The notes beneath the pieces were generated by a model. The model was given only the letters and a program-made list of their open reading frames with translations, was not told the origin of the DNA and searched no databases. A DNA stretch of 52,616 nt, taken from a phage. Below, in pieces: positions 11,961 through 12,053 of this stretch (its first letter is position 1; each line of letters starts with the position of its first letter). The translations under genes and the position numbers were made by a program. The DNA is taken from sequence record PZ379594.1. The stretch is one strand, 5' to 3'.

Positions 11961-12053
11961 GGACGAGTAGCTCAGAAGGTCTGCTCCAGAGCTTAGTCAG
12001 GTAGAGCAATCTGTTCGACAGATGTGTCGTTGGTTCGAATCCAACCTCGTCCA
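11961..12053 (+). tRNA. tRNA-like gene with atypical ~21-nt insertion in the D-arm region; probable anticodon UCG (Arg)
   Basis: Perfect 7-bp acceptor stem (GGACGAG/CTCGTCC), canonical T-arm (GTTGG-TTCGAAT-CCAAC) and D-arm-like GCTTAGTCAGGTAGAGC, but 21 extra nt between U8-A9 and the D-arm, flanked by GCTCAG/GCTTAG. Confidence 0.5.

What the first reader, a model, noticed from the sequence alone, without database searches (positions are those of the whole stretch)
11961..12053. tRNA-like gene with a 21-nt insertion in the D-arm region
The 93-nt element has a perfect 7-bp acceptor stem, U8-A9, a canonical T-arm and a standard-looking D-arm (GCTT-AGTCAGGTA-GAGC). However, 21 nt (GCTCAGAAGGTCTGCTCCAGA) sit between U8-A9 and that D-arm, flanked by a GCTCAG/GCTTAG near-duplication. 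The anticodon arm folds with a 5-bp stem and 5-nt loop, or a 4-bp stem and 7-nt loop giving anticodon UCG (Arg, codon CGA). This could be a mini-intron, a slipped duplication or a decaying tRNA. A UCG tRNA-Arg would supply a decoder that, as I recall, E. coli lacks.
Basis: partly seen in the sequence, partly recalled or inferred. Interest (0 to 1): 0.6.

Follow-up and report, generated by a model that had tools for sequence, protein, structure and literature searches.

The report
Odd tRNA-shaped gene in GJ1-like coliphage
This is the long-annotated but misfit "tRNA-Arg" of phiEcoM-GJ1-type coliphages: a tRNA-derived gene with about 21 extra bases in its D-arm and an undersized anticodon loop, and it seems to be kept for its tRNA shape rather than for reading a codon.

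Summary
Window 11961-12053 has a perfect 7-bp acceptor stem, U8-A9, a canonical T-arm, a D-arm preceded by 21 extra nt, and a 5-bp/5-nt "anticodon" arm.

The window is a Carltongylesvirus (Chaseviridae) coliphage.

Across 27 related genomes the body is strongly constrained: 4 of 73 columns vary, against 25 of 46 third-codon positions next door. The 5-nt loop drifts like neutral sequence (TTCGA, TTAGG, TAAGA, and the inversion TCGAA). The insertion comes in two haplotypes. Some phages lack the element exactly, and one carries a terminator-like hairpin in its place.

ARAGORN and Rfam (gathering threshold) find no tRNA in the window. Rfam aligns the GJ1 haplotype full-length at 41.8 bits, with the extra bases inside the D-loop.

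Best reading: a class-I-tRNA-derived, non-decoding tRNA-like RNA kept for its L-shape. It probably serves as an RNase P/CCA processing handle between a covarying structured non-coding region upstream and the spanin genes downstream. That role is inferred, not shown.

A working tRNA-Arg(UCG), a spliced mini-intron, a class II tRNA-Leu and a neutral pseudogene are all less likely.

The parts
11961..12053 (+). Whole tRNA-like element (93 nt). It is identical in seven genomes, including Ecp_YSF, Pel53, flopper, TH53, EcoM1 and PO103-1.
   Evidence: annotated tRNA-Arg in relatives
11961..11967 (+). Acceptor stem 5' strand GGACGAG. It pairs 7/7 with 12046-12052 and is invariant in 13 variants.
11970..11990 (+). 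The alternative placement is 11976-11996, inside the D-loop. The first GCTC (11970-11973) can itself pair with GAGC at 12004-12007. There are two haplotypes among relatives (…GGTCTGCTCCAGAGCTTAG and …GGTTTGCATT-GTGCTCAG).
11983..11992 (+). Possible 3-bp mini-hairpin inside the insertion (GCT-CCAG-AGC). The middle pair switches T-A to A-T between the two haplotypes, which is a single event.
11991..12007 (+). Canonical-looking D-arm GCTT-AGTCAGGTA-GAGC. T34.G44 becomes C-G in haplotype B. It aligns to the D-arms of ordinary class I tRNAs.
12009..12023 (+). Anticodon-arm equivalent: an invariant 5-bp stem ATCTG/CAGAT with a 5-nt loop TTCGA (12014-12018). The loop is 2 nt shorter than in any standard tRNA. 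Relatives carry TTAGG, TAAGA or TCGAA in the loop.
12024..12045 (+). Variable loop GTGTC and T-arm GTTGG-TTCGAAT-CCAAC. Only one column varies (T/C in the T-loop).
12046..12055 (+). Acceptor 3' strand CTCGTCC (one G-C to G.U change in relatives), discriminator A (G in some), then CC. The CC is kept in all but one copy. CCA is encoded in several relatives but not in the window.
11717..11950 (+). Upstream intergenic structured RNA region. Hairpin 11750-11786 has 5 pairs with compensatory changes and hairpin 11818-11835 has 1. The near-invariant segment 11901-11950 includes hairpin CGCAG…CTGCG (11921-11941). The region is present even in phages that lack the tRNA-like element.
12084..12224 (+). 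Conserved 46-aa ORF. Its Shine-Dalgarno sequence lies about 20 nt after the element. The Rz/Rz1-like spanin genes follow at 12233-12602.

Best explanation
The element descends from a class I tRNA gene. It now carries a 20-21-nt expansion of the D-loop region (a partial duplication of the D-arm 5' half plus filler) and an anticodon arm that is 2 nt too short.

It is transcribed inside a rightward polycistronic phage transcript and folds into an L-shaped tRNA mimic. It is recognised by the host tRNA-maturation machinery: RNase P at G11961, then 3' trimming and CCA repair after 12053-12055. It is not used to read a codon.

Its selected role is most likely that of a processing and stabilising 'punctuation' signal. 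It would separate the structured non-coding region and imm-like gene upstream from the ORF46-spanin mRNA downstream, releasing a stable tRNA-like by-product.

Shown here: tRNA ancestry, conserved pairing, purifying selection on the body, a neutral-like loop, dispensability, and restriction to this phage clade.

Inferred, not shown: transcription, RNase P/CCA processing, absence of aminoacylation, and the punctuation role.
For: 1. Class I ancestry. The repaired 72-mer is about 80% identical to ordinary phage tRNAs, such as KP12 tRNA-Phe and S-CAM4 tRNA-Arg. The Rfam tRNA model aligns GJ1 full-length at 41.8 bits with a 23-nt D-loop insertion.

2. Constraint on shape. 4 of 73 body columns vary, against 25 of 46 third-codon positions of the next ORF (Fisher p=1.9e-9) and 20 of 40 spacer columns. 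All 21 pairs are kept in 13 variants, and the only stem changes are G-C to G.U or U.G to C-G.

3. No constraint on the 'anticodon'. 4 of 5 loop columns vary, which does not differ from third-codon positions (p=0.37) but differs from the body (p=2e-4). One allele is the exact inversion of the loop. Within the TAAGA lineage, PYps16N and FXie differ at 6/46 third positions and 24/130 upstream positions but at only 1/73 body positions.

4. Loop geometry. A 5-nt loop closed by G-C, 2 nt shorter than aligned tRNAs; ARAGORN rejects the window copy.

5. The CC after the discriminator is retained in all but one copy, although the trailer is otherwise highly variable.

6. Position. The element is intergenic, about 20 nt before the ribosome-binding site of ORF46, with no terminator-like site between the imm-like gene and ORF46. 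BSBP01 has a -23.7 kcal/mol hairpin plus a U-run at the same spot. A covarying structured RNA lies directly upstream.

7. TH23, TH28 and TH33 carry a second, unrelated tRNA-shaped element with a mini anticodon loop right behind the first.

8. Precedents for tRNA-like processing signals: plant mitochondrial t-elements (PMC1920247) and bacterial and phage Y RNAs that RNase P cleaves and that receive CCA (PMC4201824).
Against: - There are no expression or cleavage data for any of these phages.
- RNase P needs only the acceptor and T-arm, so the equally strong conservation of the D-arm, anticodon stem and variable loop is not explained by a punctuation role alone.
- PYps3T, PYps4T and PYps16T do without the element (PMC8762354), so any role is accessory.
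- The first loop base (U33-like) stays T and the last stays a purine in all four loop alleles, and the UCG allele is the majority. Both fit some residual anticodon-loop function.
- CGA is fairly frequent in the phage: 13.7% of Arg codons, 6.6 per 1000.
- The relatives are close (mean column identity 96%), and no stem pair of the cloverleaf shows a double compensatory change.
Confidence: 0.45

Rival explanations
1. It is a working tRNA-Arg(UCG). The D-loop expansion is tolerated, and the G-C pair closing the loop opens to give a 4-bp stem and a 7-nt loop (G-U-UCG-A-C). The tRNA then reads CGA, and perhaps CGG, which the host decodes poorly.
For: ARAGORN calls tRNA-Arg(tcg) once the 21 nt are removed. 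Rfam gives 41.8 bits for the GJ1 copy. Published tRNAscan-SE calls report a 92-95-bp tRNA-Arg (PMC6266442, PMC10282059, PMC13340011). CGA makes up 13.7% of Arg codons in the window. UCG is the majority allele, and a U33-like base and a purine-37-like base are always kept. CC follows the discriminator.
Against: The anticodon changes to UAG, AAG and CGA in 7 of 29 genomes with no other change in the body, and the body remains constrained in those lineages. G32-C38 would be a Watson-Crick pair, and purine-32 is essentially absent from bacterial tRNAs (textbook knowledge). Position 20 is U, not the A20 that is an ArgRS identity element (textbook knowledge). The window copy fails both ARAGORN and the Rfam gathering score. 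The element is dispensable.
Confidence: 0.2
2. It is a tRNA mimic that acts as a decoy or sponge for a host factor which recognises the tRNA body or CCA end rather than the anticodon. Candidates are CCA-end-modifying or tRNA-cleaving defence toxins, or a tRNA-modifying or tRNA-processing enzyme.
For: The whole L-shape (acceptor, D-arm, anticodon stem, variable loop, T-arm) is constrained while the loop is free. The element is accessory and patchily distributed, like many counter-defence genes. It sits next to an imm-like superinfection-immunity gene.
Against: This is purely inferential: no partner has been identified, and the patchy distribution is equally expected for a non-essential processing signal.
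Confidence: 0.1
3. It is a decaying tRNA pseudogene with no function, and looks conserved only because the phages are closely related.
For: It has two disabling-looking lesions. SA91KD has a further 6-nt deletion in the D-loop. The element is exactly absent from some phages and replaced in another. The TH23 group carries another broken-looking tRNA beside it.
Against: The body varies about ten-fold less than neighbouring synonymous and spacer sites (4/73 against 25/46 and 20/40, p=1.9e-9), while two internal patches evolve at about the neutral rate. The low diversity is therefore not due to recent origin or a sweep.
Confidence: 0.1
4. It is a class II tRNA-Leu(CAG). On this reading the 'D-arm' is really the anticodon arm (loop GUCAGGU), the 5-bp/5-nt hairpin is a long variable arm, and the 'insertion' holds the D-arm.
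For: ARAGORN calls exactly this for haplotype B copies in GJ1, ST32, SKA49, DE15 and Bp10. The supposed anticodon loop is invariant, and a free-to-vary loop is natural for a variable arm. The literature mentions 'arginine or leucine' (PMC8762354).
Against: The required D-stem has only 2 of 4 pairs in haplotype B and 1 of 4 in the window, and the anticodon stem needs an A.A mismatch. ARAGORN makes no such call for the window haplotype. The segment aligns base for base to class I tRNAs as D-arm, A26, anticodon stem, GUGUC variable loop and T-arm. Five unpaired nt after a variable-arm stem is atypical.
Confidence: 0.05
5. The 20-21 nt are a mini-intron removed at the RNA level to give a normal-length tRNA.
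For: The GenBank note on GJ1 says 'may contain an intron'. Removing the segment between the two GCTYAG copies gives the same 'mature' sequence in both haplotypes.
Against: The segment is far below group I/II intron size and is not in the anticodon loop. Folds show no bulge-helix-bulge motif, and bacteria lack the splicing endonuclease (textbook knowledge). The Mangalitsa annotation lists no RNA ligase or endonuclease of that kind. Splicing would still leave the 5-nt loop.
Confidence: 0.03

Closest known systems
The annotated 'tRNA-Arg' of phiEcoM-GJ1, ST32, SKA49, Ecp_YSF, Pel53 and Tiny (Carltongylesvirus, Chaseviridae)
   Same: It is the same locus and an orthologous sequence. The window copy is 100% identical to those of Ecp_YSF and Pel53. 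It is described as 92-95 bp and as possibly intron-containing (PMC6266442; PMC10282059).
   Different: Nothing differs in sequence. The published label (a decoding tRNA-Arg) is what the comparative data here call into question.
Ordinary class I phage and bacterial tRNAs (for example Klebsiella phage KP12 tRNA-Phe, Synechococcus phage S-CAM4 tRNA-Arg-TCT)
   Same: Acceptor stem, U8-A9, D-arm sequence TAGCTCAG..GGTAGAGCA, a 5-nt variable loop, and a T-arm with TTCGAAT. Identity is about 80% once the insertion is removed.
   Different: This element has 20-21 extra nt in the D region, an anticodon loop 2 nt short and closed by G-C, and an anticodon that is not conserved among orthologs.
tRNA-like processing signals: plant mitochondrial t-elements (PMC1920247); MALAT1-mascRNA and the phage T4 stable RNAs C and D (the last two from my own knowledge)
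   Same: A tRNA-shaped, non-decoding structure embedded in a longer transcript and positioned at a gene boundary. A degenerate or shortened anticodon region is typical of these signals.
   Different: Cleavage has not been shown here. Those elements are unrelated in sequence and occur in other systems.
Bacterial and phage Y RNAs (YrlA) with a tRNA-like domain (PMC4201824)
   Same: A non-coding RNA that mimics the tRNA acceptor, T-arm and D-arm. YrlA is a substrate of RNase P, the CCA-adding enzyme and tRNA-modification enzymes, and is also found in phages.
   Different: Y RNAs are encoded next to Ro60 and have a Ro-binding stem. The annotated relative has no Ro60 gene, and no Rfam Y-RNA match was found.

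Membership tests
Canonical elongator tRNA (Rfam RF00005) | 7-bp acceptor stem plus a discriminator base | tested here: met
   GGACGAG pairs 7/7 with CTCGTCC in the window and 100% across 13 variants.
Canonical elongator tRNA (Rfam RF00005) | T-arm: 5-bp stem and a 7-nt loop of the UUCGAAU type | tested here: met
   GTTGG-TTCGAAT-CCAAC.
Canonical elongator tRNA (Rfam RF00005) | D-arm placed 2 nt after the acceptor stem, with a 7-11-nt loop containing GG | tested here: not met
   Either 21 nt separate A9 from the D-stem, or the D-loop is 30 nt long.
Canonical elongator tRNA (Rfam RF00005) | Anticodon arm: 5-bp stem and a 7-nt loop with a pyrimidine at position 32, U33 and a purine at 37 | tested here: not met
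   The arm is a 5-bp stem with a 5-nt loop, or a 4-bp stem with a 7-nt loop that has G32 and C38. It is 2 nt shorter than aligned tRNAs.
Canonical elongator tRNA (Rfam RF00005) | Score at or above the family's gathering threshold (29 bits), and detection by a tRNA finder | tested here: inconclusive
   The window scores 27.9 bits as a local match only, and ARAGORN finds nothing. The GJ1 haplotype scores 41.8 bits full-length, but ARAGORN calls it Leu(cag).
Canonical elongator tRNA (Rfam RF00005) | Anticodon conserved among orthologous copies | tested here: not met
   UCG, UAG, AAG and CGA occur at the same position while the body is fixed.
tRNA-Arg (E. coli ArgRS substrate) | Identity elements C35, G/U36 and A20; actual arginylation | not testable with these tools
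   C35 and G36 would be present in the window allele. Position 20 reads U in the 11991-12007 D-loop. The identity rules come from textbook knowledge. Charging cannot be computed.
Intron-containing tRNA (bacterial group I intron in the anticodon loop; archaeal bulge-helix-bulge intron) | Intron in the anticodon loop with a group I core of more than 200 nt, or a bulge-helix-bulge motif at the splice sites together with a splicing endonuclease and ligase | tested here: not met
   The insert is 20-21 nt and lies in the D region. Folds show no bulge-helix-bulge motif. The Mangalitsa annotation lists no such enzymes.
Class II tRNA (Leu/Ser/Tyr type) | A D-stem of at least 3 pairs, a 5-bp anticodon stem, and a long variable arm | tested here: not met
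   A variable-arm-like hairpin exists. The D-stem, however, has only 1-2 of 4 pairs and the anticodon stem has an A.A mismatch. ARAGORN makes no call on the window haplotype.
tRNA-like processing element (t-element or mascRNA type) | A non-decoding tRNA-shaped fold at a transcript boundary | tested here: met
   The fold is conserved and the loop unconstrained. The element is intergenic, about 20 nt upstream of the next gene's ribosome-binding site, with no terminator nearby.
tRNA-like processing element (t-element or mascRNA type) | Endonucleolytic cleavage by RNase P or RNase Z at its ends in vivo | not testable with these tools
   This needs RNA end-mapping or an in vitro RNase P assay.
Bacterial/phage Y RNA (YrlA) | Encoded near a Ro60 (Rsr) gene; Ro-binding stem formed by the 5' and 3' ends | tested here: not met
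   No Ro60 gene in the annotated relative. No Rfam Y-RNA hit.

The most novel reading that the evidence does not exclude
The element is a dedicated phage tRNA mimic: an L-shaped, CCA-ended, non-decoding RNA, possibly produced together with the covarying structured RNA just upstream. It would be selected to occupy or divert a host factor that recognises the tRNA body or 3' end, for example a tRNA-targeting abortive-infection toxin. That would make it an RNA-based counter-defence element rather than a translation aid.
Probability: 0.1. Interest if true: 0.7.

Novelty: already known. Interest (0 to 1): 0.33.

Why it matters
About forty GJ1-like phage genomes, several of them proposed for biocontrol or therapy, carry this element. 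Papers repeat that it is a tRNA-Arg that widens codon usage.

The comparative evidence here says the label is probably wrong. The part that should read the codon drifts freely, while the tRNA shape is kept. If so, this is a compact and easily testable case of a virus keeping a tRNA-shaped RNA for something other than decoding, such as transcript processing or host-factor capture.

It also explains why annotation tools disagree on this locus. They report Arg at 71 nt, Arg at 92-95 nt, Leu, Ser, nothing at all, or a spurious protein-coding gene.

The practical gain is modest: corrected annotation and a defined experiment.

Tried and rejected
- **ARAGORN with intron and permissive options on the intact window sequence.** It gave only nonsense calls: Thr(agt) with a 7-nt intron, or a 4-base anticodon.
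- **Phage promoter at the 5' end.** ATTATTTGGA at 11954-11963 is one mismatch from the recurring phage motif ATTAGTTGGA. However, it lacks the downstream TGTGA, and the upstream bases are not conserved in relatives. Rejected as chance.
- **Source tRNA or other carriers.** Pattern scans of IMG/VR, JGI metagenomes and GTDB genomes found the element only in this phage clade. The other hits were chance matches or ordinary tRNAs. There is no match in 5,426 E. coli genomes.
- **Protein-coding explanation.** Short ORFs overlap the element on both strands and are annotated as CDS in Mangalitsa, EcoM1 and FXie. The 1-nt indel between haplotypes and the pairing pattern argue against coding.
- **More distant syntenic loci.** A search with the spanin protein returned only the same close relatives.
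- **The 2008 GJ1 paper.** It could not be retrieved.
- **BSBP01 hairpin.** The simple terminator scan did not flag it; folding did.
- **MFE folding of the intact element.** Neither haplotype recovers the cloverleaf cleanly (z = -2.7 and -1.6), so thermodynamics alone does not settle which GCTY pairs with GAGC.

Full report
**1. What is in the sequence**

ARAGORN finds no tRNA anywhere in the window, and Rfam at gathering thresholds finds nothing. With relaxed thresholds, the Rfam tRNA model matches only 11990-12045 (D-arm to T-arm) at 27.9 bits against a threshold of 29. It shows an anticodon loop 2 nt shorter than the model. Deleting the 21 nt by hand makes ARAGORN call tRNA-Arg(tcg). That call has an A.G mismatch on top of a 4-bp stem and a 7-nt loop G-T-TCG-A-C.

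**2. Where the window comes from, and what is already on record**

- The window is a Carltongylesvirus/Chaseviridae coliphage. It is 93-98% identical over this region to Mangalitsa, Ecp_YSF, EcoM1, flopper, ST32 and phiEcoM-GJ1.
- The GJ1 RefSeq record annotates the orthologous 95 nt as 'tRNA-Arg, may contain an intron'.
- Ecp_YSF and Pel53 carry a copy identical to the window's. Their tRNAscan-SE annotation is a 71-nt tRNA-Arg that starts inside the insertion. Its acceptor stem, GCTCCAG against CTCGTCC, pairs at only 4 of 7 positions, so I regard that call as an artefact.
- Papers repeat 'tRNA-Arg, 92-95 bp' (PMC6266442, PMC10282059, PMC13340011).
- One paper notes 'arginine or leucine', and that PYps3T, 4T and 16T lack exactly this gene (PMC8762354).
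- Mangalitsa, EcoM1 and FXie annotate spurious CDSs over the element instead.

The finding is therefore a known, inconsistently annotated feature.

**3. Comparative anatomy**

I collected the locus from 29 genomes and contigs and found 13 distinct versions. Variation is confined to five places:

- (i) The insertion, which has two haplotypes: GGTCTGCTCCAGAGCTTAG (the window's) and GGTTTGCATT-GTGCTCAG (GJ1, ST32, SKA49, DE15, Bp10).
- (ii) The 5-nt loop: TTCGA in most, TTAGG in JL1 and Bp7, TAAGA in PYps16N, TH26 and FXie, and TCGAA in TH29. The last is the exact reverse complement of the loop, that is, a hairpin-loop inversion.
- (iii) One T-loop base.
- (iv) One acceptor base (G-C to G.U).
- (v) The discriminator (A or G).

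SA91KD also has a 6-nt deletion in the D-loop. All 21 cloverleaf pairs are standard pairs in all 13 versions, but no pair shows a double change.

Diversity was measured on 27 genomes:

| Region | Variable columns |
|---|---|
| Element body | 4 of 73 |
| Third-codon positions of the next ORF | 25 of 46 |
| Flanking spacers | 20 of 40 |
| 5-nt loop | 4 of 5 |
| Core of the insertion | 5 of 15 |

- Body against third positions: Fisher p=1.9e-9.
- Loop against body: p=2e-4.
- Loop against third positions: p=0.37.

Within the TAAGA lineage, PYps16N and FXie differ at 6/46 third positions and 24/130 upstream positions, but at only 1/73 body positions. The constraint on the body therefore persists after the 'anticodon' has changed. 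The shape is under selection; the triplet is not.

**4. Ancestry and which fold**

- With the insertion removed, the 72-mer is about 80% identical to ordinary class I phage tRNAs. It aligns to them as D-arm, A26, anticodon stem, 5-nt variable loop and T-arm, with a 2-nt deficit in the anticodon loop.
- The 5' part GGACGAGTAGCTCAG…GGTAGAGCA occurs in normal tRNA-Lys, tRNA-Val and tRNA-Phe genes of many bacteria and phages with a 2-4-nt gap. Only GJ1-like phages have a 24-25-nt gap.
- On the GJ1 haplotype the Rfam model gives a full-length alignment at 41.8 bits. It uses the first GCUC as the D-stem and places 23 nt inside the D-loop after AGAAGG.
- Both placements of the extra bases (between A9 and the D-stem, or inside the D-loop) are 100% compatible with all variants.
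- The D-loop placement allows a 3-bp mini-hairpin whose middle pair switches U-A to A-U between the haplotypes. That is a single event and weak evidence.
- MFE folding does not decide between the placements.
- ARAGORN reads haplotype B as a class II tRNA-Leu(cag). That reading needs a D-stem with 2 of 4 pairs and an A.A mismatch, fails on the window haplotype, and contradicts the class I alignment. I reject it, although it would also explain a free-to-vary loop.

**5. Surroundings**

- Upstream lies an imm-like gene (11464-11715).
- A 235-nt intergenic region follows and behaves as structured RNA. Hairpin 11750-11786 has five pairs with compensatory double changes, and hairpin 11818-11835 has one. 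Positions 11901-11950 are almost invariant.
- This region is present even where the tRNA-like element is absent.
- Downstream, about 20 nt after the element, is the ribosome-binding site of a conserved 46-aa ORF, followed by the Rz/Rz1-like spanins.
- No terminator-like site lies between the imm-like gene and ORF46.
- PYps3T lacks the element cleanly.
- BSBP01 has in its place a 17-bp interrupted hairpin (-23.7 kcal/mol, z=-4.5) followed by AUUUUU.
- TH23, TH28 and TH33 have a second, unrelated tRNA-shaped element immediately after the first, again with a mini anticodon loop.
- The element is absent from E. coli genomes and from all other sequence searched.
- The annotated relative encodes no RNA ligase, splicing endonuclease or Ro60.

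**6. Interpretation**

The best-supported reading is a class-I-tRNA-derived, non-decoding tRNA-like RNA that is kept for its L-shape. I commit to the following mechanism. The element is transcribed within the polycistronic message. It is recognised by RNase P at its 5' end and by the 3' trimming and CCA system at its 3' end; the CC after the discriminator is kept in nearly all copies. It thereby punctuates the transcript between the structured non-coding region upstream and the ORF46-spanin message downstream.

Analogies are plant mitochondrial t-elements (PMC1920247), tRNA-like Y RNAs that RNase P and the CCA-adding enzyme accept (PMC4201824), and, from my own knowledge, MALAT1-mascRNA and the phage T4 stable RNAs. 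The processing steps are inferred, not shown.

What this model does not explain is why the D-arm, anticodon stem and variable loop are as conserved as the acceptor and T-arm. That leaves room for a whole-body tRNA mimic acting as a decoy.

A functional tRNA-Arg(UCG) cannot be excluded for the majority allele. CGA makes up 13.7% of Arg codons, and a U33-like base and a purine-37-like base are kept. It is nevertheless disfavoured by the 5-nt loop, the G32-C38 pair, and the drifting triplet.

**7. Verdict**

- The feature itself is already known and annotated in relatives.
- What is new here is the evidence that it is probably not a decoding tRNA, and that a covarying structured RNA sits directly upstream.
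- Interest is moderate to low.

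Noticed in passing
window 11717-11950 (+): The 235-nt intergenic region between the imm-like gene and the tRNA-like element is a structured RNA with real covariation. Hairpin 11750-11786 has 5 pairs with compensatory double changes and hairpin 11818-11835 has 1. Positions 11901-11950 are nearly invariant (pi 0.027). There is no Rfam match. TH37, TH26, TH24 and BSBP01 carry a shorter variant with a replaced middle part.
   Followed up: partly
L031 (Escherichia virus TH23) 470-539; also TH28 and TH33: A second, unrelated 70-nt tRNA-shaped element lies about 10 nt after the first. 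It has a 7-bp acceptor stem, a D-arm with GG and a T-arm TTCGACT, but a 4-6-nt anticodon loop and a 3-nt variable loop. ARAGORN labels it 'tRNA-?(ac)' and Rfam has no hit. It occurs only in these three genomes.
   Followed up: partly
L012 (Escherichia phage BSBP01) about 1047-1112: A 17-bp interrupted hairpin (-23.7 kcal/mol, z=-4.5) followed by AUUUUU occupies the exact place of the tRNA-like element. In PYps3T (L010 about 1075-1083) the element is simply absent.
   Followed up: yes
window 12603-13434: About 830 nt contain no ORF over 60 aa, between the Rz1-like gene and the next conserved small gene. GJ1 and Mangalitsa are likewise almost unannotated there. There is no Rfam match at E<=1. 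This could be an origin of replication, a regulatory region or a non-coding RNA.
   Followed up: no
window 4290, 8198, 9849, 10181, 18367, 52537 and others (+): The motif (a/t)aaCATTAGTTGGAtGTGA recurs 15 times with at most 1 mismatch on the core, against 4.4 expected. It matches the 'putative phage promoters' annotated in GJ1. The nearest one upstream of the element is at 10181.
   Followed up: partly
window 12008-12015: AATCTGTT inside the anticodon-arm equivalent matches the core (ATCTGTT) of the T7 RNA polymerase class II pause/termination signal, which I know from memory. It is lost in the TAAGA and TCGAA loop variants, so it is probably coincidental.
   Followed up: no
window 10728-11186 (+): This 152-aa ORF looks like an HNH/AP2-type homing endonuclease. 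Pel53 has an annotated HNH endonuclease at the same place, while GJ1 and Ecp_YSF have none there. It is a presence/absence polymorphism about 800 nt upstream of the element.
   Followed up: no
L004 1857-1976 (Mangalitsa gp35); L014 332-496 (EcoM1_00039); L030 301-480 (FXie): 'Hypothetical protein' CDSs are annotated across the tRNA-like element on one strand or the other. They are very likely annotation artefacts.
   Followed up: partly
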